Below, piece by piece: positions 1 through 33,729 of a stretch of 64,000 nt of DNA. The notes under the pieces are model-generated. The model saw only the letters and a list, made by a program, of their open reading frames with translations, was not told the DNA's origin and did no database searches. The stretch is from Scophthalmus maximus (lineage: Eukaryota). How positions within the stretch are numbered: position 1 is the first letter of the stretch; each line of letters begins with the position of its first letter. A program made the position numbers and the translations under genes. The stretch lies in NCBI RefSeq assembly GCF_022379125.1, contig NC_061519.1, forward strand, positions 24,047,101-24,111,100, given 5' to 3'.

Positions 1-352
1 TCAGTATTGGTTTCACAAATAACAAAAAATAATAATTTGGCTCATCAGCACCACATTACCATTTGTATCAGGAGTTTGAAAAGATGCTAGAAACTGGGTC
101 TATTCCGAAGAAAAAAACACATGGACAGTATGAGGAAGATCTTTTTCCCGAGATATAACTATAATTTTCTCTCATTACATTATGACTTTGTTGTTGTAAT
201 ATTCTTGAAATGTCTTCAATATGGTCCTAATACTGCATCTCACAATGACAATAAAGGAATAGTGGAGTGGAGGGAGTCGTCATATTGTCTCTTCTACAAA
301 GGATTCTTCTCCCCGTCCGATGGATGAAACTTTGACTACATTGGTCACATAC

Positions 353-507
353 TTTATCTGCGACACACAGACCTTGTACTCGTGACTGCCGGAGTCCAGC
401 GGCTGCAGTTTGCACTGGAGCGAGCAGTACTGTCTGTCCAGAGGATGTTCGTCACTGCCTTCACTGGACTGGACCATCTTCACTGCTATCTGGATGTCAC
501 TCAGCGC
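353..507 (-). CDS. parp2: parp2 coding exon 11; 3' boundary uncertain (donor GTATGT at 352, or weaker GTCTGT near 381)
   Basis: Translation ALSDIQIAVKMVQSSEGSDEHPLDRQYCSLQCKLQPLDSGSHEYKVCVSQI; human has ALGDIEIAIKLVKTELQSPEHPLDQHYRNLHCALRPLDHESYEFKVISQY. Confidence 0.75.
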
Positions 508-606
508 CTGTAAAAGAAAGAAAAAAAACCCTGAAATAATATAATATTCATCATAGTATGGACACATATTCACGCAAAGACAAAGATAATAATTGTAGAC
601 TCAAAC

Positions 607-670
607 CTCCAGCAGGGCAATTTTTGCCTTCAGCTCCTCCTCTGAGTGGATGATCGGGGGAGTTTTCAAC
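607..670 (-). CDS. parp2: parp2 coding exon 10
   Basis: Translation LKTPPIIHSEEELKAKIALLE; human has LRTPPLIRTQKELSEKIQLLE. Confidence 0.85.
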
Positions 671-758
671 CTGAATAATTATATCTTTTAATAATTACAT
701 CAAGGTAGAGACAATGTCATCACTCGCGCATTAAGTTTCCACGTATTCCTTAATTTAC

Positions 759-897
759 CCAAAGTCGTGAGGGATGCGGGTGTAGAACTGGTTGCACGCC
801 TCCAGCAGCTCCCGACTGCTGCCCTTCTTCTTCAAACACGCCTCGATCTTCTTCAGCGCGGCGTAGCCTGCGCGGATCTGCTCCGTAGTCAGTTTGC
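759..897 (-). CDS. parp2: parp2 coding exon 9 (regulatory domain)
   Basis: Translation GKLTTEQIRAGYAALKKIEACLKKKGSSRELLEACNQFYTRIPHDFG; acceptor CACCTGCAG|; donor GG|GTAAAT. Confidence 0.9.
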
Positions 898-1103
898 CTG
901 CAGGTGAAGGAAGAAATACTGAGTTCTCGCAATATGAAGCACAACAGTGAAAGGTATTGAAAACACAGACCACAGTCAGTTGGAACATCTTGGCTACACA
1001 TGCTCTAAAATCAAAATCAAATCCAATGAAATGTGGGAAGGTTAGCAGTACAAAATGAATAATCGCACATTTTTTCCTGCGAGATTGATTCCGTCAGACT
1101 CAC

Positions 1104-1251
1104 CGAGAGGAGCTTTCCGGGTGTCGTACTTCATCTCCAGCACACACTCCTCCATGGCTTTCAGGTCACAGATGAGCTCGAGGAGAGACTGGATCTTCAC
1201 ATTCAGCTTGGAGGTCTTCTTTGTGGGTACAGTGCTCACCGTGGACTCCTC
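1104..1251 (-). CDS. parp2: parp2 coding exon 8
   Basis: Translation EESTVSTVPTKKTSKLNVKIQSLLELICDLKAMEECVLEMKYDTRKAPL; donor G|GTGAGT. Confidence 0.85.
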
Positions 1252-1351
1252 CTGGAACAGTGAAATACATAATCATATATAGCACATATCTTCAATTCAA
1301 TCAGGAGTCCTGTCTTAGGGGAGACACTGTACATTAGTTGTTGGCTCGTAC

Positions 1352-1454
1352 CTTTTCCTTTGCACTGTAGTCCATGAAAACCATGTCATATTTTCCAGCC
1401 ACTTTCTCAAAACTCGCCCGCTGTTCCCACGCGTTCTTGGTCTTGTCCAAGAAC
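1352..1454 (-). CDS. parp2: parp2 coding exon 7
   Basis: Translation FLDKTKNAWEQRASFEKVAGKYDMVFMDYSAKEK; donor G|GTACGA. Confidence 0.85.
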
Positions 1455-1552
1455 CTGTGTCAAAAACAAGTGTCACAATCTATCAAACCTCTTTCCATGT
1501 GAGACACCTGGACCTTTTCAAAAAAAAAAAAAAATCAAAGACACTAGCTCAC

Positions 1553-1628
1553 TTCTTCATGAAGAAATTTTTGGCTTTCAGCAGATCTCCACCGCACGCT
1601 GTGAGGCTGCTCTGACCCACTTTGCCCA
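1553..1628 (-). CDS. parp2: parp2 coding exon 6
   Basis: Translation VGKVGQSSLTACGGDLLKAKNFFMKK; human has VGKMGQHSLVACSGNLNKAKEIFQKK. Confidence 0.85.
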
Positions 1629-1774
1629 CTGATGAACCAAAGAGAGAAACCACACAAATCACAGAATTGTAGTTTTTTTTTGTAAAGAGCTAATGTGTGT
1701 TCATTTGCTGGATCAATACAAAACCTTTCCATTTATACAAAATGCAAGGAATCCTCAGTACATGTTAAACTCAC

Positions 1775-1871
1775 CTCTGCCCCATCTCATCCACACACTG
1801 TAAACCTTGGAGATGTCGTCTTCCAGCAGCTGGATCAGGTAGTACTTGTTGTTGTTAAACTGGAGATTTGT
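1775..1871 (-). CDS. parp2: parp2 coding exon 5 (WGR domain)
   Basis: Translation TNLQFNNNKYYLIQLLEDDISKVYSVWMRWGR; donor G|GTGAGT. Confidence 0.9.
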
Positions 1872-2369
1872 CTGCAAAATGAGGCTAAAAATTAATTTCA
1901 CATTTCCACAAATCAAAATATAATCCATGTGTTGGTTTTACATCCTGCACTCGGTTTCCATTTTTTCGGATATCATTTAAAGAAATAGTGTCGGAGCATC
2001 AGAGTCACATGTCATGAATACACTTTGCAAAGCAGGTGGAAAAATAGTCCGAATGTTACGGGATTCATGAGGCTTAGTGGAATCAATTTTGTTGTAAATA
2101 AAATATAAAACCATGGTGAATAATTGTCATTTTATCTCTGAAATGATTTTTACTACTTAAGCCAATCAGCACTACTCACTGTGGAAAACAGACTGTTGCT
2201 TTTAGTCTGATGACTAAAAAAAAATCCTCGTATATAACCTGTTACTACCTGGCATAAAACTGATTCTGATTCTGAAAAAAAATTTCCAACTCTTTTATCT
2301 GTCTTAATTCATTTGCCTGATCCATTAAATTTAAATTTTATAATTTGATGTTGTTAAATTTAATTTTAC

Positions 2370-2420
2370 CTGGTTTAACATCACGTCGTAAACATCTTTT
2401 CCTTCACTGTAAACATGAGC
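2370..2420 (-). CDS. parp2: parp2 coding exon 4
   Basis: Translation AHVYSEGKDVYDVMLNQ; acceptor CTCTTGCAG|; donor CAG|GTAAAA. Confidence 0.85.
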
Positions 2421-2498
2421 CTGCAAGAGAAAGGAAAGAATGAGTGATATTAAAAGTGGCAACAGACAATAGACCGTAACTTCTCATTACAACTGCAC

Positions 2499-2569
2499 CT
2501 TTCCAAGTTTGGCTTTGCATTCAGGGTCGACCGGAGCTTTGCCCTTCATGAGCACCGTCCTCACAACCT
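2499..2569 (-). CDS. parp2: parp2 coding exon 3
   Basis: Translation VVRTVLMKGKAPVDPECKAKLGK; human PARP2 has LLKGKAPVDPECTAKVGK. Confidence 0.85.
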
Positions 2570-3071
2570 CTGCACAGCATCCAAAGATCATGAACAAGGA
2601 ATAAGAAAAATATTGTTGAATCAGGTTATATTCTAAGTCCAGCAATACTTGTGTTGAATGAGTCGTAAAGTCATTTGCAAATTGCAATTTCCACTGTAAC
2701 CATCGTGTGGTTGATTTTAGGAGATGAGATATTTTATACATTTTCTAAAACCGCGTTTCGAACAAAAAGACGTTTATCCTTCAAGAATAGTCTACTCTTG
2801 TGATTCACAACGTCATTATAATGAATCAATGTATTGCAGTTAATAGTTTTATTTAATATCAGTTTTAATACCATTGATTTCCACGGAGCTGAGAAGTGGT
2901 GTGTGTCCTGTTAACCAGTAAAATCTAAAATGTGTTTCGAAACACAAAAAACACTTAATGAGGTTCCCAGATGTCCTGCTCTGTTTGTCCCCACTGCATT
3001 AAAAACAAAATTCATATTATAAATGTATTACATATACAACATACAGTTTATGATTATTAGAGGGATGTTAC

Positions 3072-3230
3072 CTTCGGTTTTTATTTCTTCTTTGGGCGTT
3101 GCTTTGCTTTTCTGCCTCCTCTTCTTCGCTGCAGGTTGCACCTCTGTCTTCTCCTCTTCCTCCTCTTCCTCCTTCACTTGAACCGGCTGCCCACTGAGCG
3201 CAGTCGAGTCGCCGGCTTCGTTCGAACTCT
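3072..3230 (-). CDS. parp2: parp2 coding exon 2
   Basis: Acceptor TTTTTCTCCCCCTCTGTCCAG|; translation SSNEAGDSTALSGQPVQVKEEEEEEEKTEVQPAAKKRRQKSKATPKEEIKTE; donor G|GTAACA. Confidence 0.75.
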
Positions 3231-3790
3231 CTGGACAGAGGGGGAGAAAAAGAAGAAAACTTTAAACTCATTCACAGATACAAATATATAATGGGGGAAA
3301 AAAACAGAACAAAAAAACAATATTCACTTTGTATTTTGAATGCAGTTTATGATACTGTTACTATGACTACAACTGCCACTATCACACGAAAAGTTCCAAG
3401 TAGAGAAAATCTAATGAAATAAGAGTTGGGAAAAACTGTGACTCTTTCTTTGAAAGTTGGATTTGTTGACTACAGGCGACAAGAAAACGCCCAACATGAG
3501 TCAGTAGCTGCTTTCAATCGGACTTTCAGTCTGAAGTCCAAACCTTTTTTCTGAATTTTCCGGGGGGCTGTATGTGAGGATGCTCAAGCTTATCCTGCCA
3601 GCCCCTAGTAGAATATCTGAGTGAGCCCATGTGAGACTACAGCAAAAAAAAATCTCTGGAAGATTCACGGCGAGCAAGCGTGCGGGCGCTCTACCCCAGG
3701 CGCCAACCCTCGCCCGGATGTTACGGAAATCTTTCTGCTATTGTGAATGCATGTGACTCGGACAATCTCCAGCTCAGATATTCCATAACA

Positions 3791-3800
3791 ACACAGACAC

Positions 3801-3833
<33 letters not shown>

Positions 3834-3834
3834 G
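3791..3834. repeat. (CA)n microsatellite
   Basis: read directly. Confidence 0.9.
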
Positions 3835-4053
3835 ACCAAGTTTTACTGTCTGAGAGCAGATCTTCCTCTTGTATTTTGTAACAGGATTAATCTGGACCAT
3901 CTTCTTCAGGTCGACTTCGTAGGCCGACCCAGATCCCGGCGTCAGAGTGACCGAGGTTCTTCCCGAAGAGACGGCGGAGTCCAGCAAGGCGCAGTCAGAG
4001 GGCGAGTACGGTTCCCACTGTCCTTCATCCCCTTGCCACTGCCACACTGATCG

Positions 4054-4058
<5 letters not shown>

Positions 4059-4128
<70 letters not shown>
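4059..4128. repeat. (GA)35 microsatellite
   Basis: read directly. Confidence 0.95.
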
Positions 4129-4130
<2 letters not shown>

Positions 4131-4785
4131 GTACTGACATGTTTTCATTTTTGGATATGTTAAGTGCGGCCTGTCTGTAACCTGCGAACTTCCTGACTGA
4201 ATTTATTTTGCTGCCTTTTAGAATTTAAATATGTCTAAGCTTTTTGGAAGTACTAAAATGAAATAAATTGAACTACATCTACTGTTATATGGATCTATTT
4301 TAAGTGACTAATATATGACTATATTAGCTGATATAATTAGATTAATACTAATGCACTAATGTGTGAGCAGCATTTTACTGTTGTAGCAACTTTTAACTAC
4401 TTTCATTTGAAAATTCAGTTTCGTTAATAAGACGTTAGTAAGAGATAAATCTGCGAGGTTGTGAAGTGATGATTTCTCATAGTTTTGCTTACAGTTGTTT
4501 TGTTTTTTTTAATCTTACATTGGAGCAGCTTTATTCAACTTCAATCCTGTTGAAAAGTGCTGTGTGAATAAATCTATTACTGTTCATAATAATAAGTGAA
4601 AAAGAAAGAGAAAAACAAAGCTGCATATATATACATAATGTCCTTTTTTGGTGAAATACTGGACAATTTGACCTCTTTGGGTCTGAAATATCTATTTTTA
4701 TAAAATCATTTGAGACATTAAGGTGGAAAATCTCTTTGGTGGACGTTAGAAAAATGTTAAATTCTGAAAATGTGACCCGCAGACG

Positions 4786-4793
4786 TGTGTGGA

Positions 4794-4838
<45 letters not shown>
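4786..4838. repeat. (GT)n microsatellite
   Basis: read directly. Confidence 0.9.
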
Positions 4839-4839
<1 letters not shown>

Positions 4840-5116
4840 GCCCAGGCTTTAGTCTTGAGCCATGTTTGGTATTCTATAGGATGATCATATTTTACTCTTA
4901 ATCTAGTGTAAACTAACGTGTTAAATCAATGTAGTGGAGCATTGGAAAGTGGCATAAAATGAAATGTGTCGGTACATCATAATTACACAGCACCTGAGTA
5001 ACTGCACACAGCTATTTAACCAACACAAGCATTATTTAGATGCATCTTATGAACAGGTATTAAGCTATAATATTCAGAAACAGTGATATTACATCTTACA
5101 TCCCTTTAGCAGGAGG

Positions 5117-5117
5117 G

Positions 5118-5154
<37 letters not shown>
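5117..5154. repeat. (GTT)12 microsatellite
   Basis: read directly. Confidence 0.9.
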
Positions 5155-5375
5155 ATATTTTGTGCATGTGTTGACGTGCTTGACCAACCCTGCCAGGCTT
5201 GTAACAGGTCTTGCTAATTACAAGGATAACAACAACAATAATGAAGTATACTGTTCCCCGAAAGCTCAGTCAAATCCTTATTAATAACCGTGTGTAACAT
5301 AAATCCTCCGGGTTCTGTTCAGACATGCTGCTACGTCGTCAGCTAGCTGCCTCGTCCGTCCGGCGGCATACGAAC

Positions 5376-5454
5376 CTGTTTTGGACGGAACTTCTTCTTC
5401 ATTTAATGCGTCTGCCCCCTGACTTTTATTGCTCGACGCCCTTGTTCGCCTCAT
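5376..5454 (-). CDS. parp2: parp2 coding exon 1 (start codon 5452-5454)
   Basis: Minus-strand translation MRRTRASSNKSQGADALNEEEVPSKT; Kozak context ACCATGA; donor CAG|GTTCGT. Confidence 0.75.
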
Positions 5455-6011
5455 GGTGGTTTTGTGGGGGGGGAAAGAAGAAATGATAACGAGCTGGTGT
5501 CCGTATAAAACAGGGACCGAAGCCACAACGAGCAACGCGGTAAACTTCAAACTTTATTAACCCACCGCCGCTTCCGCCAAAGATCGTCTAGTCAGCAGAT
5601 GATGCGCTCCGTTTGTTGAAAGACTTAAACACACATATTTAACGTGACATTTAAATCAAAAACATTGTAACTTTAGCTTTAGCTTTCACTCGGTTTAATC
5701 CTTATAATCGTCATGTGAAAAATAAGTAGGTACGGAAAGCCAGTAAGTAAGTATAAGACATCCATCGGAAGGCGTCGACAGTGCACGACAAATACGCACA
5801 GAGTGAGCACTCTTTTGCATGTGCCCTTAAATCGGGAACACAGCTTCGGTTTGTCAAGAGTTCCGCCTCAAACTGCGGTCGGACTTATTTTGTTGAAGGA
5901 CTGGATGGAGGCAAATGTGGCGGTGCTCCGTCCGCGCCCCGTCGCGGTGACTGATCACAGTTTAACATTTAAAGAAATCTTTTTTAAATATACAGTACCG
6001 ACACCGGAGAC
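5455..6011. promoter_or_regulatory. shared bidirectional promoter between divergent parp2 and mettl17 start codons
   Basis: About 557 bp separate ATG(parp2, 5454, minus) from ATG(mettl17, 6012, plus). The interval is CpG-containing and has no long ORF. Confidence 0.6.
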
Positions 6012-6080
6012 ATGGCGTCACGGAGCTACAGTGTCCGGGTCCTCTGTCAGAGGGCCGGGGTCGCGAGGATGACGTTCAGG
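6012..6080 (+). CDS. mettl17: mettl17 exon 1
   Basis: Translation MASRSYSVRVLCQRAGVARMTFR; donor AGG|GTGAGT. Confidence 0.8.
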
Positions 6081-6554
6081 GTGAGTGAAGTTTGTGGATG
6101 TCATTGAACGTAGCATTTGTACCGTGGAGGGGTCACGCAACAGGAACTGAGGCAAATAAACACTTTGCTATGAAACTCAAAATTCTTACTTGTTCAATTA
6201 TCAAATTCCCCATCTGCTAATTCCCAGGCTTTCTTGTAAATATGCATATTCATGTCCTTTTTTTTTCCTGCAACAAAAAAACAAACAAACAATCTAAATG
6301 AATTATTTGTTTGTTGAATAGAATTAGAATCAAAATCAGTTTTATTGCCAGGTAACGGGTAACTGGTTACATACGAGGAACTTTTTGGGGTGTTATCACG
6401 GTGCATGTAGCAGTTAACATATATAAACAGAATTAGAAAAAGAATATAGAATAAAATTAAAATAAAATACACACTATTTTCAATAAATTTACAATAAATA
6501 TCGGGGTCACAGATGGTTAAATGTGAGTGTGGTGGATTACGGTAATATAACGTG

Positions 6555-6795
6555 TTATGTCCATGGGGAAGGAAGGGAGGTGTCACTGGGGGTCCCGGGC
6601 CTTGTTGATGAGGCTTTACAGACATCAACCTCTTGCCGGAGGGGAGCATTTCAAAAAGTTTGTGTCCGGGGTGGGAGGGGTCGGCTATGATCTTTCCTGC
6701 ATGCTTGAGAGTCCTGGAGGCGTGCAGGTCCTGGAGGGACGGCAGGTTGCAGCCAATCACCCTTTCGGCACAGCACATTATACGCTGCAGTCTGC
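6555..6795 (-). mobile_element. fragment of a fish LINE (3' end of the RT ORF) inside mettl17 intron 1
   Basis: Minus-frame translation AERVIGCNLPSLQDLHASRTLKHAGKIIADPSHPGHKLFEMLPSGKRL resembles the widespread teleost LINE ORF2 C-terminus (..SSHPAHGLFSLLPSGRRYRSL..). It is degenerate after this motif. Confidence 0.45.
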
Positions 6796-7090
6796 TTTTG
6801 TCCTTTGCAGCAGCATGTATTATATATAGTAATATGTAATTTATATGGGAATAGGAATATACATCTGGACCTTGTGAATTTCCTGTAAATCCAAAGTTGA
6901 AAATGTAGATGACCTATTTTTTTAAATCACTAATAAAATGTGCTTAGTTCGATGACAGATTTAAAATAAAATACCAAAAGTCTTGGCTCTGAATGCATCA
7001 AATGCTTCTTCTTGTCTGTCCAACTAAGACCAGTTGGTTACCGTGAACTCACCAGAATTAAAGGAGTGTTGTTGTTGTTGTTATCCTCAG

Positions 7091-7232
7091 GGAATGATTG
7101 CAGCTGCACAACCACAGGCCGAGGTCGATTTCCTCAAAGGAGAACCACACAGGAAACACCCCGGTGTCACCAACCTGAAAGCTCTGCGCCTGCCCGAGGA
7201 ACTCCAGACAGCAGCACGGACCATTATCCAGA
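7091..7232 (+). CDS. mettl17: mettl17 exon 2
   Basis: Acceptor ttatcctcag|; translation GMIAAAQPQAEVDFLKGEPHRKHPGVTNLKALRLPEELQTAARTIIQ; donor A|GTAGGT. Confidence 0.85.
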
Positions 7233-11956: not shown

Positions 11957-13008
11957 AAACATTTGTTCTGTCATGCTGTACTTTACCATCTTATTGTTCA
12001 CCACCTTCAACAAACCAGGGTCACTTTTTTTTGTAAAGCACATGCTGTAATTTTGGACATTAAAGCGGCAACAGACAGCGATGGCGCCCCTAGTGGTTTC
12101 CTAGAGGTACTTTTTCCTCAGAGCTCCTAAGGAAGTTGTCATCAGATAATGCGAGGAGAAAGCATCGTGGTTAACTCAACGCCAGCAGCCGGGCTACTGT
12201 CCAAAGCAGCAATTAACCATAAAAATCTAAATTTGAAAAAAAAAAACCTTTGTAAGAATAAGAAAAACAAACTACATATGGTTTAATTCGTGGAGCTTCT
12301 CTCCACAGAGTGAATGTCTGTCTGAGGTTCAATCGTTTTATCTTTTTCTTTCACTCTCCATCTGTTTTTTGTTCCTCCATCAACAGGATTAATTTTTTTT
12401 CTTGCAAGGTTACACAATGACAAGCTTAAGCCAAACAGTTGTCAATTTTGGCTTTAATGTGAAGGGTAGGCTGTCCCAAAATTGAAAAAGAGGCCATGTA
12501 GGTATGTTTCATGTGTCATCTTCAGAGCTCAATATCATCCCTTTACTGAAAGAATCCCAAAATCCAAAAGATCCACCGATTTACATTTTCACTTTTTCTT
12601 GCTCAAATGAAGTCACTAAAGTGTGTTCATGTGGTTTGTCGACAAACTGGAGAAGCAAAAGATTGAAAGCCTGAAGACGTCCTGCTCCGTCAGACAAATT
12701 TCAACAGAAAAAAAATCTGATCCCAGTGCAGGATGATATCACATCTGACTTTAGAGGCGTCTACTGTGTCTCAGGTGCTGGGATCCATTTTCAATACGAA
12801 GTCTCCCAAGAAAAGAAAACCTGCAGTTTGTAAAACCTGATTCAAACGCACCTTTCAAGCAGCTTATGAATCTGATGAATGTGAGCTTTACAGAAATATG
12901 TCACCTCAGTTACAGTTGTTCTTTATATTCTCTCCATATAAGACACAGTAAATATTAAGGCATAATTACACAGATAATTTAAGCCACCACACATTCTTCC
13001 AAAATCTC

Positions 13009-13439
13009 TTAACTCCCAACAATCTCCTTCAGGGCTGAGGTCAAGTCCGGGAACTTGTACTGAAATCCGGCCTCTAAAGTCCTCTGTGGTCTGACCTTCT
13101 GTCCCTGGGTGAGGACCACCGCCCTCTCGGAGCCCATCAGGCCGTTCATGACGAAGCCTGGCACGGGAAAGATGGTGGGCCGCCGCAGAAGTCGGCCGAG
13201 CTCCTTAGTGAACTCGTAGTTGGTGTTCAGCGCGGGTGCGACTCCGTTCAACACTTGCTGTGAAGATGAGGGAGCGGCGGTGGGCGGCGGCTCCAGGGCG
13301 TGGGCGACAATTCCTGCCAGGTCTGAGACGTGGATCCAGGGGAACGGCTGCCTCCCTGAGCCCAGGGTGCCCCCGAGGCCGAGCCAGAAGGGCAGCAGCA
13401 TCTGCTTCATGGCGCCACCGTCACGACCCAGCACGGCCC
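13009..13439 (-). CDS. sdr39u1: sdr39u1 coding exon 6 (stop TAA at 13009-13011)
   Basis: Translation GAVLGRDGGAMKQMLLPFWLGLGGTLGSGRQPFPWIHVSDLAGIVAHALE...LKEIVGS*. Confidence 0.9.
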
Positions 13440-13548
13440 CTGGTGGAGAGAGGGGGGAAGAACAGGGGGAACGTCATCTTCATGCTTTTGGTCAAGAAAG
13501 TTCTTGACGGATCCACATGGTCTGTGATGAAATATGAAGGTTTATTAC

Positions 13549-13701
13549 CAGGTCTGATGACAACTTGTCTGGTGGTCTGTGCCACACTCTCAGGCAGAAT
13601 TGCTGAGGCCTCCCACTCTTTGACAAGCCTGGAGAGGAGGTCGAATGGTGTCCACTCACTGTCTTCTGTGTACTCGGCTGTCAGACTGGGTTTGTAACAA
13701 G
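13549..13701 (-). CDS. sdr39u1: sdr39u1 coding exon 5
   Basis: Translation ACYKPSLTAEYTEDSEWTPFDLLSRLVKEWEASAILPESVAQTTRQVVIRP; donor G|GTAATA. Confidence 0.9.
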
Positions 13702-13805
13702 CTGTGGACAGAGAGACGACAGTAAATGTCCCGAGTCTAATCCGGTCGGATTGTCTAATCAGCCTCGAACCCCGATCAGCAATTTTTTTCTGTCACCAGA
13801 CTTAC

Positions 13806-13927
13806 CGACACCTGATACCAGCACCCAGGAGTGAGGAGGACTGGGGGAAGCGGCGATGGCTTGAGCCAGAGCTTTTGTCGTGTCGATGCGACTTGAGAAC
13901 AAATCTTTTTTATAGCTTTCGTTCCAC
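13806..13927 (-). CDS. sdr39u1: sdr39u1 coding exon 4
   Basis: Translation WNESYKKDLFSSRIDTTKALAQAIAASPSPPHSWVLVSGV; donor G|GTAAGT. Confidence 0.9.
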
Positions 13928-14299
13928 CTGAAACCACAGACGGGTTGAGACGTTAAAGTGACTGACACAGTAACTCTGAACGGCACCGTTAATGGACCAC
14001 AACACTTAGTTAAATTCCAACCAAGAGAGTTAAACTATTTGTGTTAGATCCTGAGAAATCCACAGACATGATTCACATTAGATGTTTAGAGCTGAAAAGA
14101 TGCTTTTTATTTGTTGGTTTCTGCTTCTCAGATGTGAGGAATCTATTTCTTCATCATGATACAGTGTGATAATAAATATATATACTTGGATTTTGAACTG
14201 TTAGTCAGATAAATGGCAACTTTACATTGGTCAACTTGGGATGTGCGAAATTATTTAAAAATTATTTGAAGTTGTAGCACAAGTTAATTTGCTGCTCAC

Positions 14300-14382
14300 C
14301 ATCGCAGTGGGTTCATGAGATTTTCTCCAGCCAAGTTGACGGCGCCCTCACATGGTGGGAGGCCATGAGACTCCAACTCACC
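14300..14382 (-). CDS. sdr39u1: sdr39u1 coding exon 3
   Basis: Translation GELESHGLPPCEGAVNLAGENLMNPLRW; human has DELAASGLPSCDAAVNLAGENILNPLRRW. Confidence 0.85.
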
Positions 14383-14584
14383 CTACAAGGAGCACAGATG
14401 AAGAAAAGAACAGTGAATATCTGCAATGTGGTGGAAAGCAGCCATTAATAGGTAGGTCAGTTAAAAAAAAACATGTGCATCTCAGTGTCATGGCAACCAG
14501 TGCGGCTGCAGGAATGAAGGAGATGCAGCCCCACCTCCTTTCCCTGCTCTTTTACTATTATTGTACATTAAACAAAGATCATAC

Positions 14585-14691
14585 CCATGTTATTTTCCCT
14601 GGACCGGGCTGGCGAGATATCACTGTGACCTCGTGACCTTTGTCTCTGAGCAGACGAGTGAGCTCGCGGCCCACAAAGCCAGATCCCCCTC
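14585..14691 (-). CDS. sdr39u1: sdr39u1 coding exon 2
   Basis: Acceptor TCTTTCATCGTAG|; translation GGSGFVGRELTRLLRDKGHEVTVISRQPGPGKITW; donor TGG|GTATGA. Confidence 0.85.
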
Positions 14692-15615
14692 CTACGATGA
14701 AAGACAACACAAAGAAGAGAGATGTACAGAGAATCCATCAGTTATCGGCTACAAATTAATCTAGAAAAGAGAGAAATGGTGACTCTGTTTGCCCTGATGT
14801 TACAAATATTAATAGATATATTATCAAAGGGGCATTGAACCAGGAGCAACTGGACTTGGTTGTAAGTTCTTGAAGACATTTCACCTCTCAACCAAGAGGC
14901 TTCTACCGTTCTAACTAAGTTGTGGTGAAACACAGGTATGAGTTTGTTACTTAATAGGTAAGGTGTAAGTATTAGTAGTATTAATATTAGTAGTAGTATT
15001 AGTAGCTCCTGATTCAACATCCTCAGATAACTAATACCTGGAAAATGGCACTATTTTTGTAAATATACATTTTAAAACTTTTTCAAAAACACTTCTTTTG
15101 CACATTCTCTGAACAGAACTTTTGGAACTTATTATGTCACTTGGTTTAGAAATTGCTGCTACTGACTTTGTCATTGTATTTTAGTTTTTTATTTCTGTTT
15201 TTATTTATTGTTCTGATAAATGCAAGGGTAGGAAACCATACATAATTAAATTGAACTAAGTATAATGAAAATAAAGAAAATTCTATTCTATTCTAGATGA
15301 CTGAGAATTTCCACAGACATAAGTAAATATAAAACATACCTTATAAGTTACCATCAGGTACAGTAAGATAAAAACTAATACAGCCCTATAAAAAAAATGT
15401 CCTGTAATGCAGTAATAAATCCTATCTTCATGAAGGTCAGCTTAGCTGTAACTGTTCTGATTAAACTTAATGATGATTGAGGAAATCGTTTGTGGAACTG
15501 TTTGATATTATTCATAGAAGTGTTTCTGTTATTTAGCCAAGCCACGTTTCCGTTAAACGGAGCTGACAAAAAGTTTAAATAAAGTTATTTTGACATTGAA
15601 AGCACGGGTTGCAGC

Positions 15616-15625
15616 GCGCATGCGC
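15616..15625. promoter_or_regulatory. perfect NRF1 palindrome GCGCATGCGC in sdr39u1 intron 1, close to its promoter
   Basis: cagcGCGCATGCGCact read directly; it lies about 300 bp downstream of the sdr39u1 start codon on the minus strand. Confidence 0.5.
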
Positions 15626-15922
15626 ACTACACTACGCTTACAAAACAGCACTCTTGTGCGTTACTTTAGCAAACGTAGCTTTGTGCAGGCTAACAATAAA
15701 ACCGCGCAGTTTCTCTAGGTGTTGATCGCGACACGAAGCCTACTTGTAGGTTATTCTGTCAGTTTCAAGACGAACATAATGCAAATGTAACTTACAGGCG
15801 CATGACTCAAATGTCTGTCTTTATACCTGCAATGCTAACAGCAGCTAACAACTAGCTGCTAGTGACATGACCTTTACGAACAAAACCAAAAACATGAATA
15901 TATGACAATAAAACATACGTAC

Positions 15923-15938
15923 CTATTAAGACTCTCAT
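15923..15938 (-). CDS. sdr39u1: sdr39u1 coding exon 1 (16 nt: ATGAGAGTCTTAATAG)
   Basis: Translation MRVLI plus G. Donor G|GTACGT; its phase matches the exon 2 acceptor. Human begins MRVLVGGGTGF. Confidence 0.6.
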
Positions 15939-16789
15939 AGTCACCGAATTGGCGATTTAATAACTGACCGTTGATCTACACCGTGTCTGTCTGACTCCAC
16001 CGCTCTGTATTATAAGGCAGTGAGATGGTTTCAGTCTTTCTTTCTTTTTTGGACCAATGGGGGTTCCGTACTTGTACCAGCAGTTACGTCATTTTGTAGT
16101 TTTTTAAATGAGCTCTGGGAATAGATGGTTTGGTAAAAAGAAACAGGTGCTGTTAAATCACGGGTTTATTAAAAGCACAGCAGCCGCTTATCTAAGTAGT
16201 TCTATAAAAAAAAATCATGGTGCAGACATGAAATAATACATTTTGCACGTCTTTATTAATGTGTGTCTCTCTGTAGTCTGTCTAGTGTTGTGTGTCTTTG
16301 AAAGTATGTTTCTTTCTTTTCTTTGTGTATTTTTTCCTCTTTTTGTGTCCCTCTGTGCTTCTTCTGCCTTTCCTCCGAGCCATTTTGTGTCAAGTCAGGA
16401 TGACGAATTTGAAAATAGGGTACAACAACGACAACAACAACAAAAACAACTACAACAACACAAAAGACTGGGTCGTTGTTTAATGAATCTTTTTCTTTCA
16501 ATCTCATAATATTTGTTTTGTCAGATTCCCCCCCCCCCCCCACATTATAATAACATTTAATTGATTATCTATAGATGTTAATTAGAAAGAACAGTGTCAC
16601 TCTTGCTGCTGAAGAATTTCCTGATATGGATTTTACAAATATATATATATATATATATATTTATTTATTTATTTTTTAAAATAATCAATAAATATTTATA
16701 CTGTCGACAGAAATGAAAGTCCACTGATGCATTACATATTCGTCACACAGGTGTTATGTTATGTTATGTTATGTTGCGTATCCGCTCTT

Positions 16790-17110: not shown

Positions 17111-18210
17111 AGGCGGAATCCCAGTGGAGGGAAAGTTGGTAGACTTAATAACGACTAATATTATTGTCCTGATGAAGCCTCAGGTGGTTTAGGACTTTTT
17201 ATTATCAATATTATTTTTATTATAGCTTTAATTTGTGGAACATCACTTTGAACATTCACTCTGATGTTGTTCTTAAGTGCGATTTGGCTCTTGTGAAATA
17301 TGACATAATTTCACCTGCTTTTTGGATTTTATGTAATTGTTTAGCTGAAACTGAGAAGTTGAGATTGCTTTTGTTTTTTAATTTCCTGGACCTGATAACT
17401 CTGACCACGTGACAAAGGGACAATGGCTACATCCTGTTAGTTTTTTGGTTTTTCTTCCCCCCACATGGTTACAAGCCAAACAGGAAACCACTGGTTTAAT
17501 CTTTTAACTTAACATTATATTGTCTCTGGGAAATTTATTGACTGTGGCTGCAATGGAAATTAAGTGAAAGTCTTTTTCCTCTGGAGTAGTCTCATTATGC
17601 AGAATATCCCATTTTAAAATTAATTCATTGGTCATTAATCGGAAAATAATCAACTGTTTTGATAAGAGACTACAATTTGAGTCATTCTCACAAACCCCAA
17701 TGAAATACTGTTTTAGTTACTCGATCATGAAACTCTCCTGTGTTTCTGTATAAATTAGGTTTTATTTATAGAAAATTCCACATTTGTTGGGTTTTTGACT
17801 GTTGGTCAGACATGGTGGAGTGGATTTTTTTTAAGTTGATTAATTTATGAAAATAATCTGCATAACAAATGATGACCTAGTGTGCTTGTGTTTAGATTTT
17901 GCTATTTGAGTCACATTATTGATAAATCAATGTGTGCGACATGTTGCCTTTTCCCTTGGGGATATATATTGACCTGATACAATATCTGTATCTCTGTTAA
18001 ACCTTTGGACGCTGCCACGCTTCTTTGTTATCGCGACGCCACTTTTTATTCCGTCAAACCTTCATGATGATTTGCATGTGAGTCCGTGTTTCACCTGAAC
18101 CTCATGATTATTCTTTCACTGCGCTGATGGGTTTGACGACGCAGACGACGGTCGTGTGCTTTAACGTGTAGTAAGTTGAGACACTAACCTGGTCAATGTT
18201 TGCTTATGAT

Positions 18211-18249
18211 TTCAGAGCCGGGGGCCTGGACGAGATCTGAACTGATGAG
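18211..18249 (+). ncRNA. candidate spliced noncoding or 5'UTR exon
   Basis: Acceptor tgatttcag|AGCCGGGGGCC...GATGAG|gtaagt donor. All three frames contain stops. Confidence 0.35.
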
Positions 18250-18342
18250 ATGAGGTAAGTTCACTGAAACATGAAAGTAGCACATTATCACTTAAAACAC
18301 ACTTTATGCTTATTATTTATTCACCTCGTTTTCTTCTACAGG

Positions 18343-18390
18343 TTATGGGACACGGGACAAACTGAGAACTCTGCTGCGTTGCTTTAGAAG
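18343..18390 (+). ncRNA. candidate spliced noncoding or 5'UTR exon
   Basis: Acceptor tcttctacag|GTTATGGGACACGGG...TTTAGAAG|gtgaaa donor. No ORF can run from exon 18211-18249 through this one. Confidence 0.35.
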
Positions 18391-20180
18391 GTGAAACTAA
18401 GCTGCATAATATTTCTACTTGATCACTGTTCATAGTTGTAGGTCAATCTCAAACCCTGACTATATATGCATATAGTCAAAATCCCTATTTTAAAATATGT
18501 ATTTCTTAATTGATTCTATAAGTGCTCTGCTGAAATATTTACATTTATGATGTCATCAGTTTTAATTGAGAAGATCATGGTGTATTGGACTTCTATAATA
18601 GTCAGATCCAGTCCAAAACACAATCTTTTTCCCCGAACGTGTAATTAGAATTTTCCGATTTCCAACCATTTTGCCAAAAGTGAACATGGTCTTGTGACGA
18701 GGTATGAACTGTAAAAATCCATCTGTCGAATAAAGATGAATCTATTAAACTGCTTGATGTTGACTTCATTTTTCAATCTGAAGTAAAGTGGAGAAAAAGA
18801 TGTCGGGTTTTATCATTGCGTGGATATTGTTGACTTGTAAGTCTTAAGAAGAAAGCCAAAGTAAGACTTGACGGTTGACAAAAGTTCAGTTAAAATTTAT
18901 ATTGATTTGTTTATACTGGAATTTCCCAGCTTGGGATCAATGAAGAACATCTATCGTCTCGATCAGTGCTGATACCAGATAACATTCACACTTTGAAAAG
19001 CTGGATTTTAACTACATTCAAAGATTAAAAAACCTTTTTGGAATTTTATTAGATTTTTTTTAGGAAAAGTACAAAATATTTTGTGTAACTGAAAACATAG
19101 AAAGGAGGCATTCAACTTCTCAAAAAATAGCAGTATAAAAAAAATCTCAGTACATTGCTTAAAATGCAATATGTTAGTGCATAACAGTTTTAGAATTGAC
19201 TGAAACATGATATATGTATATCTATATGTACATCAGCGAAAAATACTGTTTACAATTGTCATGGGGAAAAACCTGCTTTAAGTGACAAAATCAAAACGTT
19301 AAATGACAAGCTGCATCTCGTTGAGTTGACAAATACAATCAATTTTTTAAAAATGGGATGAGGCGTCTCGTCCTTTAGTTTCCGTGTAGGGTTTTCATAT
19401 TTGACACTACCAGTCTATGTAGAGAACTGACGGCTTATGTCCGTAAAGTTGGTTCAAGGCTTTAACAACAACGCAGAGTCCAACTTCAGAGATTTCAAAG
19501 AGAAAATTGTGTATTTTACATTCATATTTTTGAGTTCTCCATAAGGAGGAAACATGTTATTTATCATCATACTGATGTATTTGGTGTGATTTGAAGATGT
19601 ACAGTAAATCTCTCCACTGAGCTACAATCAGGCTCTTAAGAAATCCTTTCATTTATCTAAAGGGCCAATTTATGGTTTTATATCAAGAATATCGTATTTG
19701 TTTGTCTACAATTATAGCTTCTGGTTATAATTGGTGGCTGCTGTATAAACATAGATTATAATATAGATAAACAGTTTTAATGTTAAAAGTTATATTTGTG
19801 GTCAACTTCTGTACCAAAAATATTGTAGCTGCCTAAAACAAGTGTTACTACCATTTATGAATTTGTTTTAGCATAAACTAAATGCTCATTTTGAGGGAAG
19901 TTTTTACAAGAACTTGAGTTTTTCTCAGTGCATTTTCTCCCCAAGAAAATTACATTACTGTACTGAACATCTTTTATCCCTTTTTCATGTGTCATTCCCT
20001 GTCAAACAAAACAAAAAGTATTTACAGGTCAGGCATACTAACAAATAATTTCTTCCTGTCAAACTTAAGTTTCAACAAGTGATTTGGTTTTGTCTATTTT
20101 TCTTTGAACACAAAGTCCGGCTCAAATGCTGCTTTAACCAAAATCCCACCCGCCTGGCGTAGTTGTGCACGTCGTCGGCC

Positions 20181-20448
20181 TCATCTCCCGTTCTGCACAG
20201 AGTGACCACCCGCGCTGTTTGTGGAGTTGAGATTGCCGGTTTCCACCGAGTCTTTCCCCGCGGAGCGACTCTTTTTGTTCCCCGACTGGTCGGAGGATAT
20301 TCCCTCAAAGAGCTTGGCCATGAAGGCGAATCCGTTCTTCCTGATGTAGGACTTCCCCGCGAAGGTGTAGAGGATGGGATTGGCGCAGCTGCTGATGAAG
20401 GCCAGCGCTGATGTGACCGCACGACTGGACTTGGAGATGTGGTCCAAC
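20181..20448 (-). CDS. ltb4r: ltb4r coding exon 3 (TM7 and C-tail, stop TGA 20181-20183)
   Basis: Acceptor TTCACCTGCAG|; translation LDHISKSSRAVTSALAFISSCANPILYTFAGKSYIRKNGFAFMAKLFEGISSDQSGNKKSRSAGKDSVETGNLNSTNSAGGHSVQNGR*. Confidence 0.85.
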
Positions 20449-21378
20449 CTGCAGGTGAACACATGAGTAGACACTTCAATTACTGAACACTTTCAGTGGT
20501 ATAACGGGTTTCAATGCTGAATCCTGCTGAGTATATTAATACTCAACATACACAATGGTCATATTTTATGTATCTTAGCATCATTTTATACATGTATATT
20601 TACACTTTACAATAAAGTTGGATCTAACCGAATATTATACCACAGCTACAGTAAAACATTTATATTTAAGGATTGGAAAAATGTCACGACTACAGAGACA
20701 CAGAATAATTACAAACTCACAAAACAAGTACTGGGAGACAGTGATAAAGAGAACTGGAAATTACTGGACATTTATAAGGAGACAAAAATGACAAAAGTGG
20801 GACAAAAGACATAACCAGACACTAAATGACGACAAAGGAATTTGGCTCCAATTTAAAAAAGCTTCAGTTTTCACAATGTTGGCAACTGAAAGTAAAATGT
20901 ATTGCACCATGATACCAATCTCCTGATATGGTTTCCAATAGATCAAAGGTCAAACAATCCTTGAAACCAAGACCTTTTCTTATTTTCATATCGACCATAT
21001 TCTGTTTGTTTTTTGTCAGAAATATTTAAGCTGTGTGTCAAGCTATGACGTGAATGGCCACTGTATTGCTCTTACAGTAAACGTTCCACGTTATAACGTG
21101 ATACTTTATTGTTATAACAATGAACTTTTTACTTTATAACAGTAAACTTTCAAGTTATAACGTGATACTGACTCATTTAAGTTTTGTCAATATTATTATT
21201 ATCAATATATATATATATATTTGTTTGAGAGGGTTTGGGGAAATGGTCAAAACATTTTGTTACTCACATATCTCTCTTGGTTGAATCCACCGGGTACAAC
21301 TCAGCTGCGACCTATTGGACGTAACAAAACAAAAAAAAGGGTCACATTGGGTCACTGATCCGAAGAAGCAGAAAAAAC

Positions 21379-21620
21379 GTGAGCAGATGATCTCGCGTGG
21401 CGACCGATTCCTCCCACACCTGCACCATGTTGACGACGTGGTACGGCAGCCAGAAGGCGCCGAACATCACCACGATGGCCAGGATGAGCTTCTCGCTGCG
21501 GATGGTTCGCCGGAACTTGGTCTGCCTGAGGCGCCGCAGGATGAGCACGTAGCTGGTTATGATGATTGCGTAAGGGACGATGAATCCCGCCACTGTCTCG
21601 AAGGCGTACTGAAACTGTAC
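21379..21620 (-). CDS. ltb4r: ltb4r coding exon 2 (TM5-TM6)
   Basis: Acceptor CCCTGCGTGCAG|; translation VQFQYAFETVAGFIVPYAIIITSYVLILRRLRQTKFRRTIRSEKLILAIVVMFGAFWLPYHVVNMVQVWEESVATRDHLL; the donor is a weak AC|GTTTTT. Confidence 0.75.
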
Positions 21621-21827
21621 CTGCACGCAGGGAGGACAGGGAAAAAAACAAATCATGGATAATAATTGCATGGGCCTCGGCGGACGTGCATGGATCTGTC
21701 CAAACAAGGCAGAGCGAGATGAGAGCTGTAGTCAGATTCAAAGTTTCCAGCTCTTGGTTCAGGGAATTAGCTGAAAACTCAAAACCATTCGGGTTTTACA
21801 CTTTCGTTCAAAGATGATTAACTGATT

Positions 21828-21850
21828 CCCCCCCCCCCCCCCCCCCCCCC
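21828..21850. repeat. poly-C homopolymer (about 23-25 nt) in ltb4r intron 1
   Basis: read directly. Confidence 0.9.
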
Positions 21851-33626: not shown

Positions 33627-33729
33627 GTCAGACGCGCCTCTCGGATTGGATGAATGTGTCTTGACGTGAAGCTCTCGAGTGACCGGGCGATGAAACTTCT
33701 GCGTGACTGTGTGTTGCAACGAGGGGCCT

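What the first reader, a model, noticed from the sequence alone, without database searches (positions are those of the whole stretch)
5376..6080. parp2 and mettl17 are head-to-head with only about 557 bp between start codons; no RNase P RNA gene where human has RPPH1
In human, PARP2 shares a bidirectional promoter with the RNase P RNA gene RPPH1. Here the divergent partner is the protein-coding mettl17. I see no H1/RNase P RNA conserved regions (such as the GGGAAGGTCTGAGA-type CR-I block) in 5455-6011. Either the bidirectional partner differs in this lineage, or rpph1 lies elsewhere. The shared 557-bp interval should drive both genes. NRF1 or ETS motifs there would be expected, but I did not verify them.
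Basis: partly seen in the sequence, partly recalled or inferred. Interest (0 to 1): 0.5.

Follow-up and report, generated by a model that had tools for sequence, protein, structure and literature searches.

The report
Ordinary parp2–mettl17 head-to-head promoter
In this turbot sequence the DNA-repair gene parp2 and the mitochondrial-ribosome gene mettl17 start back-to-back from one short CpG-rich stretch with no RNase P RNA gene nearby; the pairing is also present in a shark, a sturgeon and a caecilian, so it is probably the ancestral state and the human PARP2–RPPH1 arrangement the later change.

Summary
The window is turbot (Scophthalmus maximus). The parp2 ATG is at 5454 (minus strand), the mettl17 ATG at 6012 (plus strand), and exactly 557 bp lie between them. 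Assembled cDNAs place the 5' ends at 5547 and 5910, so the untranscribed gap is at most 362 bp. It sits inside a ~900-bp stretch that is not CpG-depleted.

No RNase P RNA is present. Rfam RF00009 gives nothing in the interval at E<=10 or in the whole 64 kb at E<=1. Halibut, fugu and smelt loci are also negative at the gathering score. The same model scores 216 and 198 bits on sturgeon and anole loci, so the method works.

The same parp2/mettl17 head-to-head pair occurs in halibut, fugu, smelt, sturgeon, catshark and a caecilian. In the anole, as published for human and mouse, RPPH1 lies upstream of PARP2 and METTL17 is not adjacent. The fish pairing is therefore probably ancestral and the amniote one derived. 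In sturgeon a complete RPPH1 gene sits in mettl17 intron 1, 2.3 kb from parp2.

The interval has no NRF1, ZNF143, Sp1 or CCAAT motifs. It has four ETS cores and two promoter-proximal blocks conserved among teleosts. This is an ordinary bidirectional promoter of low interest. Promoter sharing is inferred, not shown.

The parts
5376..5547 (-). parp2 exon 1. Coding part 5376-5454 (MRRTRASSNKSQGADALNEEEVPSKT, ATG at 5452-5454). 5'UTR 5455-5547.
   Evidence: Spliced cDNA contig L007 (Logan, SRR12588624) maps 1-174 to 5547-5376 and continues in exon 2 at 4049. The translation matches turbot PARP2 P0121. The N-terminus MRRTR(A/S)S is shared with halibut and smelt.
5536..5597 (.). parp2-proximal block around the parp2 cDNA 5' end. 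It contains an ETS-type core, GCTTCCG at 5570-5576 (CGGAAGC on the parp2 strand).
   Evidence: Local alignment to the halibut interval gives z=9.5, with 0 of 200 shuffles reaching it. It is not significant against fugu, smelt, sturgeon or shark. The ETS core aligns with AGGAAGT in halibut.
5600..5830 (.). AT-rich, non-conserved spacer between the two promoter-proximal blocks.
   Evidence: No alignment above shuffles to any species, z<=1.8. No Rfam hit and no PSE/TATA pair. The near-octamer TTTTGCAT at 5813-5820 is not positionally conserved, and such matches are at chance level (2 observed, 0.58 expected, p=0.13).
5833..5909 (.). mettl17-proximal conserved block, ending at the mettl17 cDNA 5' end. 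Sequence: GGGAACA..CTTCGG..GGTTCCGC..TCGGACTTATTTTGTTGAAGGAC. It includes a reversed ETS core, TTCCG, at 5861-5865. It is the probable mettl17 core promoter and TSS region.
   Evidence: Local alignment gives halibut z=19.3, fugu z=7.1 and smelt z=2.6 (5 of 200 shuffles). Sturgeon and shark are not significant. The alignment is shown.
5910..6080 (+). mettl17 exon 1. 5'UTR 5910-6011. Coding part 6012-6080 (MASRSYSVRVLCQRAGVARMTFR), followed by a GTGAGT donor.
   Evidence: cDNA contigs L002 and L003 start at 5910 and 5924 and splice on to 13 further exons ending at 12018. The translation equals P0001.
5200..6100 (.). CpG-non-depleted (CpG-island-like) stretch. It covers both first exons and the interval between them.
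   Evidence: In 200-bp windows the CpG observed/expected ratio is 1.0-1.6 from 5200 to 5900 and 0.90 at 6000. The flanks are 0.0-0.8 and the whole window is 0.74. The interval alone has o/e 1.24 at 45% GC.
6081..7086 (+). mettl17 intron 1. This is the position that holds RPPH1 in sturgeon; it is empty here.
   Evidence: Exon borders come from the cDNA mapping. No RNaseP hit. In sturgeon, RPPH1 at L008 7427-7740 lies between mettl17 exon 1 (ATG at 9081) and exon 2 (6772-6602).

Best explanation
The interval is an ordinary pol II bidirectional promoter region that serves two housekeeping-type genes, parp2 and mettl17.

Shown:
- The two genes are divergent. Their mRNA 5' ends lie at most 362 bp apart, inside one ~900-bp stretch that is not CpG-depleted.
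- There is no RNase P RNA gene, no other Rfam RNA and no type-3 pol III promoter in the interval or in mettl17 intron 1.
- The same head-to-head pair exists in four other ray-finned fishes, a shark and a caecilian.

Inferred:
- Transcription starts from two TATA-less core promoters, one at each edge of the gap. Each is marked by a block conserved among teleosts that carries an ETS-type GGAA core. The parp2 block is around 5540-5597 and the mettl17 block is 5833-5909.
- The two promoters share one open chromatin region, so the genes are probably co-expressed.
- The PARP2/METTL17 pairing is ancestral to jawed vertebrates. Amniotes lost it and ended up with RPPH1 as PARP2's divergent neighbour. 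Teleosts keep rpph1 somewhere outside this locus.
For: - Gene identities, start codons and the 557-bp gap.
- cDNA 5' ends at 5547 and 5910.
- CpG profile.
- No RNase P RNA in the window or in turbot L001, halibut, smelt and fugu loci. Positive controls of 216 and 198 bits.
- No PSE+TATA pair in 5300-7100.
- Head-to-head pair, with CDS gaps: halibut 507 bp, smelt 280 bp, fugu 481 bp; sturgeon 919 bp, catshark 4.5 kb, caecilian 571 bp.
- The anole has RPPH1 upstream of PARP2, TEP1 downstream and no METTL17 adjacent.
- Human and mouse PARP2-RPPH1 bidirectional promoter: PMC3082894 and Ame et al. 2001, cited.
- Conserved blocks. ETS cores enriched, 4 against 1.0 expected.
Against: - No TSS-resolution data exist. 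RNA-seq contig ends only bound the TSSs.
- The two conserved blocks are about 240 bp apart with an unconserved spacer. The two promoters could therefore be functionally independent.
- The ETS enrichment is weak (p about 0.02, several motifs tested), and only two of the four sites are positionally conserved.
- The parp2-side block is conserved only with halibut.
- The polarity argument rests on one species each for shark, chondrostean, amphibian and squamate. A second cartilaginous fish (the stingray Hypanus) shows no gene call within 10 kb upstream of PARP2, in a very expanded locus with no DNA returned.
- No early-branching teleost, gar, frog, bird or mammal locus could be fetched.
Confidence: 0.85

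Rival explanations
1. Two independent promoters that merely lie side by side. Each gene is driven only by its own proximal block, and nothing in the interval acts on both.
For: There are two separately conserved blocks at the two edges and a ~230-bp AT-rich spacer with no detectable conservation. The ZNF143 site that acts in both directions in the human PARP2-RPPH1 promoter is absent.
Against: The whole region is one continuous CpG-non-depleted stretch. In smelt the complete ATG-to-ATG distance is only 280 bp, which leaves no room for two separated promoters. The pairing is kept in lineages as distant as shark, sturgeon, teleosts and a caecilian, which is easier to understand if separating the genes is harmful.
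Confidence: 0.3
2. A strongly diverged RNase P RNA, or another small pol III RNA gene, is hidden in the interval or in mettl17 intron 1 and escapes the covariance model.
For: RPPH1 lies next to PARP2 in amniotes and inside mettl17 intron 1 in sturgeon. Octamer-like motifs occur in the turbot (TTTTGCAT) and fugu (ATTTGCAT) intervals.
Against: - RF00009 gives nothing at E<=10 on 4800-6800 with lax filters, or at E<=1 on the full window. The same model finds sturgeon and anole genes at about 200 bits although they are only 63% identical to each other.
- There are no CR-I or CR-V blocks and no PSE+TATA pair.
- The middle of the interval is not conserved even with halibut.
- The octamer-like motifs are at chance frequency and are not aligned between species.
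- Zebrafish RNase P RNA is a conventional 307-nt gene (bioRxiv 10.1101/869651).
Confidence: 0.03
3. The turbot interval keeps leftovers of a former RPPH1 distal enhancer (octamer and ETS sites), now re-used by the two protein-coding genes. On this view teleost ancestors had RPPH1 here and lost it.
For: Sturgeon has RPPH1 2.3 kb from the parp2 ATG. Near-octamers are present in the turbot and fugu intervals. SNORD126, whose human copy lies in CCNB1IP1 (PMC8148486), which by my recollection is next to RPPH1-PARP2 in human, is still about 12 kb from parp2 in turbot.
Against: The octamer-like matches are not above chance and are not positionally conserved. There is no SBS and no PSE relic. The catshark has the gene pair without any RPPH1 within 10 kb, so RPPH1 may never have been in the interval itself.
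Confidence: 0.1

Closest known systems
Human and mouse PARP2-RPPH1 bidirectional promoter (Ame et al. 2001, J Biol Chem 276:11092; Myslinski et al. 2001; Anno et al. 2011, PMC3082894)
   Same: The same gene, PARP2, starts divergently from a very short interval shared with a neighbour. The region is compact and TATA-less on the PARP2 side.
   Different: The partner here is a pol II protein-coding gene (mettl17), not the pol III RNase P RNA gene. The single ZNF143/Staf site that drives both directions in human, the octamer, the PSE and the TATA box are all absent. The turbot gap (<=362 bp between cDNA ends) is, from my recollection of the human locus, wider than the human one; I did not check this.
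Generic vertebrate CpG-island bidirectional promoters: head-to-head gene pairs with TSSs less than 1 kb apart, about 10% of human genes (as defined in PMC3082894)
   Same: Divergent genes, cDNA 5' ends <=362 bp apart, a CpG-non-depleted stretch spanning both first exons, ETS-type GGAA cores, no consensus TATA at the expected distance, both genes broadly housekeeping, and an arrangement conserved across species.
   Different: Nothing essential. GC content is low (45%) compared with mammalian CpG islands. My understanding is that this is usual for teleosts; I did not check it. NRF1, Sp1, CCAAT and ZNF143 motifs, which I recall as frequent in mammalian bidirectional promoters, are not present.
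Sturgeon (Acipenser ruthenus) PARP2 / METTL17 / RPPH1 locus, L008
   Same: The same head-to-head PARP2/METTL17 pair, with a similar mettl17 exon 1 peptide and exon 2.
   Different: In sturgeon, mettl17 intron 1 holds a complete RNase P RNA gene on the PARP2 strand. It scores 216 bits and has a PSE at -68, TATATA at -33 and a T8 terminator. The turbot intron 1 (6081-7086) has none. The intergenic sequences are not alignable.

Membership tests
Nuclear RNase P RNA gene (RPPH1; Rfam RF00009 RNaseP_nuc) | Covariance-model match at or above the gathering score of 28 bits | tested here: not met
   No match in the window at the gathering score, at E<=10 in 4800-6800 or at E<=1 in 1-64000. Controls scored 216.4 bits (sturgeon) and 198 bits (anole).
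Nuclear RNase P RNA gene (RPPH1; Rfam RF00009 RNaseP_nuc) | Conserved regions CR-I (GGGAAGGTCTGAGA) and CR-V (AATTCAGACTA) in one ~300-nt unit | tested here: not met
   None in 5300-7100. The only CR-I-like 14-mer is at 25782 with 2 mismatches (about 0.4 expected by chance) and has no CR-V nearby. nhmmer with a sturgeon+anole profile found nothing.
Nuclear RNase P RNA gene (RPPH1; Rfam RF00009 RNaseP_nuc) | Type-3 pol III external promoter: PSE near -55 to -68 and a TATA box near -30 | tested here: not met
   The PSE+TATA scan recovers the sturgeon and anole promoters and gives no pair in 5300-7100. The scan has low specificity, so only the negative result is informative.
Bidirectional pol II promoter (head-to-head pair, TSSs less than 1 kb apart) | Two genes on opposite strands with 5' ends less than 1 kb apart | tested here: met
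   cDNA contigs end at 5547 (parp2, minus strand) and 5910 (mettl17, plus strand), leaving a 362-bp gap. The start codons are 557 bp apart.
Bidirectional pol II promoter (head-to-head pair, TSSs less than 1 kb apart) | CpG-island-type sequence spanning both starts | tested here: met
   In 200-bp windows CpG o/e is 1.0-1.6 from 5200 to 5900 and 0.90 at 6000. The flanks are 0.0-0.8 and the window as a whole is 0.74.
Bidirectional pol II promoter (head-to-head pair, TSSs less than 1 kb apart) | A cis element whose loss lowers transcription in both directions, or co-regulation of the two genes | not testable with these tools
   This needs reporter or deletion assays, CAGE and expression series.
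ZNF143/Staf-dependent bidirectional promoters (the class of human PARP2-RPPH1, PMC3082894) | A Staf binding site, TTCCCANAATGCANNGCG, with or without the ACTACA extension | tested here: not met
   No match with up to 4 mismatches in the turbot, halibut or fugu intervals. There is one 4-mismatch match in smelt.
PARP2 orthologue | WGR + PARP regulatory + PARP catalytic domains, and best matches named PARP2 | tested here: met
   For P0121, Pfam gives WGR 2.5e-23, PARP_reg 7.8e-46, PARP 3.6e-76, plus WWE 6.7e-17. All top hits are named PARP2. The window holds exons 1-12 of the cDNA; the 3' part is cut off by the window start.
METTL17 orthologue (Rsm22 family) | Rsm22 domain over most of the protein, and best matches named METTL17 | tested here: met
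   Pfam PF09243 at 1.4e-58, covering profile positions 5-275 of 275. The named hits in the list are METTL17 or methyltransferase-like 17.

The most novel reading that the evidence does not exclude
RPPH1 was already tied to the PARP2/METTL17 pair in the bony-vertebrate ancestor, nested in METTL17 intron 1 a couple of kb from PARP2 as in today's sturgeon.

On this reading the well-known amniote pol II/pol III PARP2-RPPH1 bidirectional promoter arose when METTL17 (with SDR39U1) was moved away and RPPH1 was left, inverted, against PARP2. Teleosts instead kept the protein-coding pair and lost or relocated RPPH1.

The conserved SNORD126 about 12 kb away, whose human copy sits in CCNB1IP1 (which I recall as lying beside RPPH1-PARP2), would be the remaining landmark of the old neighbourhood.
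Probability: 0.3. Interest if true: 0.4.

Novelty: new member of a known kind. Interest (0 to 1): 0.2.

Why it matters
It matters little for turbot biology. This is a standard CpG-type head-to-head promoter, and both genes are already annotated in public turbot assemblies.

The modest value is comparative. It shows that the textbook human PARP2-RPPH1 shared promoter, widely used as the compact bidirectional H1 promoter in vectors, is a derived amniote arrangement. It replaced an older PARP2-METTL17 pairing that is shared by a shark, a sturgeon, teleosts and a caecilian.

It also points to sturgeon, where RPPH1 sits in mettl17 intron 1, as a possible intermediate for how a pol III gene came to share a promoter with a pol II gene.

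Tried and rejected
- A hidden or degenerate RNase P RNA was rejected. Three Rfam passes on the window, two on other teleost loci, blastn, nhmmer, CR-I/CR-V motif searches and a PSE+TATA scan were all negative. Two strong positive controls worked.
- A CR-I-like 14-mer at window 25782 was rejected. It has 2 mismatches, about 0.4 are expected by chance, and a lax Rfam pass over 17400-26400 found no RNaseP.
- The octamer as an RPPH1 enhancer relic was rejected. It is at chance level and not positionally conserved.
- NRF1, ZNF143, Sp1, CCAAT, YY1, CRE and E-box motifs are absent or at chance level.
- The ccnb1ip1 coding sequence as host of the SNORD126-like snoRNA was not found by tblastn. I used a human sequence written from memory, so this is a weak negative.
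- Look-ups that gave nothing usable: opossum PARP2 and flounder PARP2 were not on record. The caecilian and stingray loci came without DNA because the genes are too long.
- The search of 50%-identity representatives gave unnamed, distant sequences. It was useful only for building a mixed profile that pulled in shark, sturgeon, caecilian, squamate and marsupial PARP2.
- I found no paper that discusses a parp2-mettl17 pair and none that gives the zebrafish parp2 position. Zebrafish rpph1 is reported on chromosome 2 at 37.83 Mb, with two further copies (bioRxiv 10.1101/869651). I could not check whether that is near zebrafish parp2.
- tRNA scan of the window: none.

Full report
**Source and genes**

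The window is turbot (Scophthalmus maximus). It is 98-99.5% identical to assembly GCA_003186165.1 (locus L001).

On the plus strand, an ATG at 6012 opens exon 1 (MASRSYSVRVLCQRAGVARMTFR, donor GTGAGT at 6081). Thirteen further exons follow, and the cDNA mapping ends at 12018. The concatenated exons match Pfam Rsm22 at 1.4e-58. They are 94% identical to the annotated turbot METTL17 (P0001); the differences are my rough exon borders.

On the minus strand, an ATG at 5454 opens MRRTRASSNKSQGADALNEEEVPSKT. Further exons at 370-4049 match human PARP2 and turbot PARP2 (P0121, 647 aa). The 3' end of parp2 runs off the window start.

The other turbot assembly has 558 bp. The limits of the finding, 5376 and 6080, are the donor ends of the two first exons.

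**Transcript ends**

Exact-protein look-ups returned spliced contigs assembled from public RNA-seq runs. The parp2 contig L007 starts at window 5547 and is collinear through exon 1 to 5376 before splicing to 4049. The mettl17 contigs L002 and L003 start at 5910 and 5924.

These ends are minimum extents, not mapped TSSs. They show that about 195 bp of the 557 is 5'UTR and that the untranscribed gap is at most 362 bp (5548-5909). This meets the usual operational definition of a bidirectional promoter, which is TSSs less than 1 kb apart, as used in PMC3082894.

In 200-bp windows the CpG observed/expected ratio is 1.0-1.6 from about 5200 to 5900 and 0.90 at 6000. It is 0.0-0.8 in the flanks and 0.74 for the whole window. 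One CpG-island-like stretch therefore covers both first exons and the gap.

**RNase P RNA**

- Rfam 15 over the whole window at gathering scores gives 0 hits.
- The 2-kb stretch 4800-6800 at E<=10 with lax filters gives only chance matches. Several are caused by a (GTT)n/(CAA)n microsatellite pair.
- The whole window at E<=1 gives no RNaseP match.
- The turbot L001, halibut, smelt and fugu loci give none at the gathering score. Halibut and smelt give none at E<=1 either.
- blastn and an nhmmer profile made from the sturgeon and anole genes find nothing above chance.
- A PSE+TATA scan finds no pair in 5300-7100.
- There are no tRNA genes in the window.

The method works. RF00009 scores 216.4 bits (E 2e-65, full length) in the sturgeon locus and 198 bits in the anole locus. 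Those two genes are only 63% identical to each other.

**Neighbours of parp2 in other vertebrates**

With mettl17 or PARP2 orthologues as handles, I fetched loci with 10-kb flanks.

| Species | Upstream of PARP2 | CDS-to-CDS gap | RPPH1 |
|---|---|---|---|
| Pacific halibut | mettl17, head-to-head | 507 bp | none |
| Rainbow smelt | mettl17, head-to-head | 280 bp | none |
| Fugu (Takifugu flavidus) | mettl17, head-to-head | 481 bp | none |
| Sterlet sturgeon | mettl17, head-to-head | 919 bp | in mettl17 intron 1 |
| Small-spotted catshark | mettl17, head-to-head | 4.5 kb | none |
| Caecilian (Rhinatrema) | mettl17, head-to-head | 571 bp | unknown, no DNA returned |
| Anolis sagrei | no METTL17; a MACPF gene, then a 7.5-kb gap | not applicable | 4.8 kb upstream, divergent |
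| Stingray (Hypanus) | no gene call within 10 kb, very expanded locus | not applicable | unknown, no DNA returned |

In the teleosts the same downstream neighbour follows mettl17: an sdr39u1-like gene with Epimerase and DUF1731 domains. In the anole, TEP1 lies downstream of PARP2. By my recollection that is also the human layout.

The anole RPPH1 (L010 4907-5230) has octamer motifs about 230 bp upstream of it. For human and mouse, the PARP2-RPPH1 shared promoter and its single ZNF143 site are documented in PMC3082894 and in Ame et al. 2001 (cited).

By parsimony, the PARP2/METTL17 pairing is the ancestral jawed-vertebrate state and the amniote arrangement is derived. The sampling is thin. It is one species per non-teleost lineage, and no gar, early teleost, frog, bird or mammal DNA could be fetched.

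**Sturgeon intermediate**

In the sterlet, RNase P RNA lies at L008 7427-7740, on the PARP2 strand. That is inside mettl17 intron 1, between the exon 1 ATG at 9081 and exon 2 at 6772-6602, and 2.3 kb from the PARP2 ATG.

It looks functional. It has CR-I (GGGGAAGGTCTGAGA), a PSE-like TCACCACACGTGCAAAATA at -68, TATATA at -33 and a T8 terminator. The corresponding turbot intron (6081-7086) is empty.

This suggests, but does not prove, that RPPH1 was linked to this gene pair before amniotes arose.

**Content of the interval**

A MAFFT alignment of the intervals and local-alignment scores against 200 shuffles define three parts.

- **parp2-side block (5536-5597).** It is conserved with halibut only (z=9.5). 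It holds an ETS-type core, GCTTCCG, at 5570-5576, which aligns with AGGAAGT in halibut.
- **AT-rich spacer (5600-5830).** It shows no detectable conservation (z<=1.8).
- **mettl17-side block (5833-5909).** It is conserved with halibut (z=19.3) and fugu (z=7.1), and marginally with smelt (z=2.6). Its sequence is GGGAACA..CTTCGG..GGTTCCGC..TCGGACTTATTTTGTTGAAGGAC. It ends exactly at the cDNA start, so it probably contains the true mettl17 TSS.

Neither block aligns with sturgeon or shark. The gene arrangement is therefore far older than any recognisable promoter sequence.

The motif scan gave these results:

- There are no NRF1, ZNF143 SBS, Sp1, CCAAT, E-box or full CRE motifs.
- CGGAA occurs four times against 1.0 expected (p about 0.02). 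Two of these sites lie in the conserved blocks.
- Near-octamers are at chance level (p=0.13) and are not aligned between species.

**Mechanism**

The best-supported reading is two TATA-less, ETS-type core promoters. They lie back to back, roughly 300-360 bp apart, inside one CpG-island-like open region.

The positions, the CpG profile, the conserved blocks and the conserved pairing are shown. Which factors bind, and whether any element acts on both genes, is inferred and needs experiments.

The main rival is independent side-by-side promoters. The unconserved spacer favours it. The 280-bp total gap in smelt and the very long persistence of the pairing argue against it.

**Comparison and novelty**

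This works like any vertebrate CpG-type bidirectional promoter. It is not a member of the RPPH1 or type-3 pol III class, since the covariance-model match, the conserved regions and the PSE/TATA pair all fail. It is also not in the ZNF143-dependent class of the human PARP2 promoter, because it has no SBS.

Both genes are already annotated side by side in public turbot assemblies. I found no paper that discusses the pair.

I rate it a new member of a known kind, of low interest. The only mildly new point is the evolutionary polarity and the sturgeon arrangement.

**Limits**

- I could not locate turbot rpph1 because no fish genome is searchable here.
- Zebrafish rpph1 is reported on chromosome 2 at 37.83 Mb (bioRxiv 10.1101/869651). 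I could not establish where zebrafish parp2 lies.
- The positions of METTL17, SDR39U1, CCNB1IP1 and TEP1 relative to PARP2 on human 14q11-q12 are from my own recollection. They are not tool results.

Noticed in passing
window 18056-18134 (+): A box C/D snoRNA matches Rfam SNORD126 below its gathering score (39.6 bits against 55; E 1.4e-5 in a 9-kb search). It has C, D' and D boxes, a terminal stem and a 13-nt block, AGUCCGUGUUUCA, identical to the consensus. It is conserved at the same place, beyond sdr39u1 and on the mettl17 strand, in halibut, fugu and smelt (two copies in smelt). Human SNORD126 lies in an intron of CCNB1IP1 (PMC8148486), a gene I recall as lying next to RPPH1-PARP2. I found no ccnb1ip1 coding exons in the window, so the fish host gene is unknown.
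   Followed up: partly
window 3837-4049 (-), parp2 exon 2: Turbot PARP2 carries an N-terminal WWE domain (aa 27-90, Pfam E 6.7e-17). Human PARP2, using a sequence written from memory, has none. PARP2 of sturgeon, sharks, a caecilian, squamates and marsupials carries WWE hits as well (two in sturgeon and the caecilian), and many unnamed distant PARP2-like proteins also align over the WWE region. Absence in human PARP2 therefore looks like a loss after the marsupial split. I did not check placental mammals beyond the remembered human sequence, or the literature.
   Followed up: partly
L008 7427-7740 (+) (sterlet sturgeon): A full-length RNase P RNA gene (216 bits) with a PSE, a TATA box and a T8 terminator lies inside mettl17 intron 1. 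It is antisense to mettl17 and 2.3 kb upstream of PARP2 on the PARP2 strand.
   Followed up: yes
L010 4907-5230 (-) (Anolis sagrei): RNase P RNA (198 bits) lies divergent from PARP2 but 4.8 kb from its start codon, with octamer motifs about 230 bp upstream of the RNA gene. Either the anole PARP2 has an unannotated 5' non-coding exon near RPPH1, or the two are not promoter-sharing in squamates.
   Followed up: no
window 5117-5155 and 5225-5240: A (GTT)13 microsatellite and a nearby (CAA)n run in parp2 intron 1 form an imperfect inverted repeat. They cause spurious low-score miRNA and CrcZ matches in Rfam.
   Followed up: yes
window 23842-23891 (+): There is a weak SNORD121A-like match (33.1 bits, gathering score 44, E 0.004 in a 9-kb search) with a 31-nt internal deletion relative to the model. 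It has no blastn match (E<=0.01) in the other loci fetched. It is probably chance or a degenerate copy.
   Followed up: partly
window ~12300-16000 (-), 22086-22751 (-), 40195-43854 (+), 55032-56471 (-): Other genes in the window are an sdr39u1-like gene (DUF1731 ORF at 13012-13473), a rhodopsin-type GPCR, NFAT-like Rel-homology exons (weak Pfam hits; the sequence [27 protein letters not shown] is typical of NFATc) and a MARVEL-domain gene. As far as I recall, SDR39U1 and NFATC4 also lie together on human 14q12.
   Followed up: partly
window ~32300-33900, both strands: Long open frames of Glu/Arg/Gly-rich or Pro/Ser/Leu-rich low-complexity repeats are open on both strands. An AT-rich palindrome at 52208-52283 gives symmetric mir-1277-like hits on both strands. 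Both look like simple repeats rather than genes.
   Followed up: no
L005 5244-5297, 6332-6385 (-), 1228-1281 (+), 17436-17489 (-) (rainbow smelt): Several UnaL2 LINE 3' elements lie in and around the smelt parp2 gene. Two are above the Rfam gathering score.
   Followed up: no
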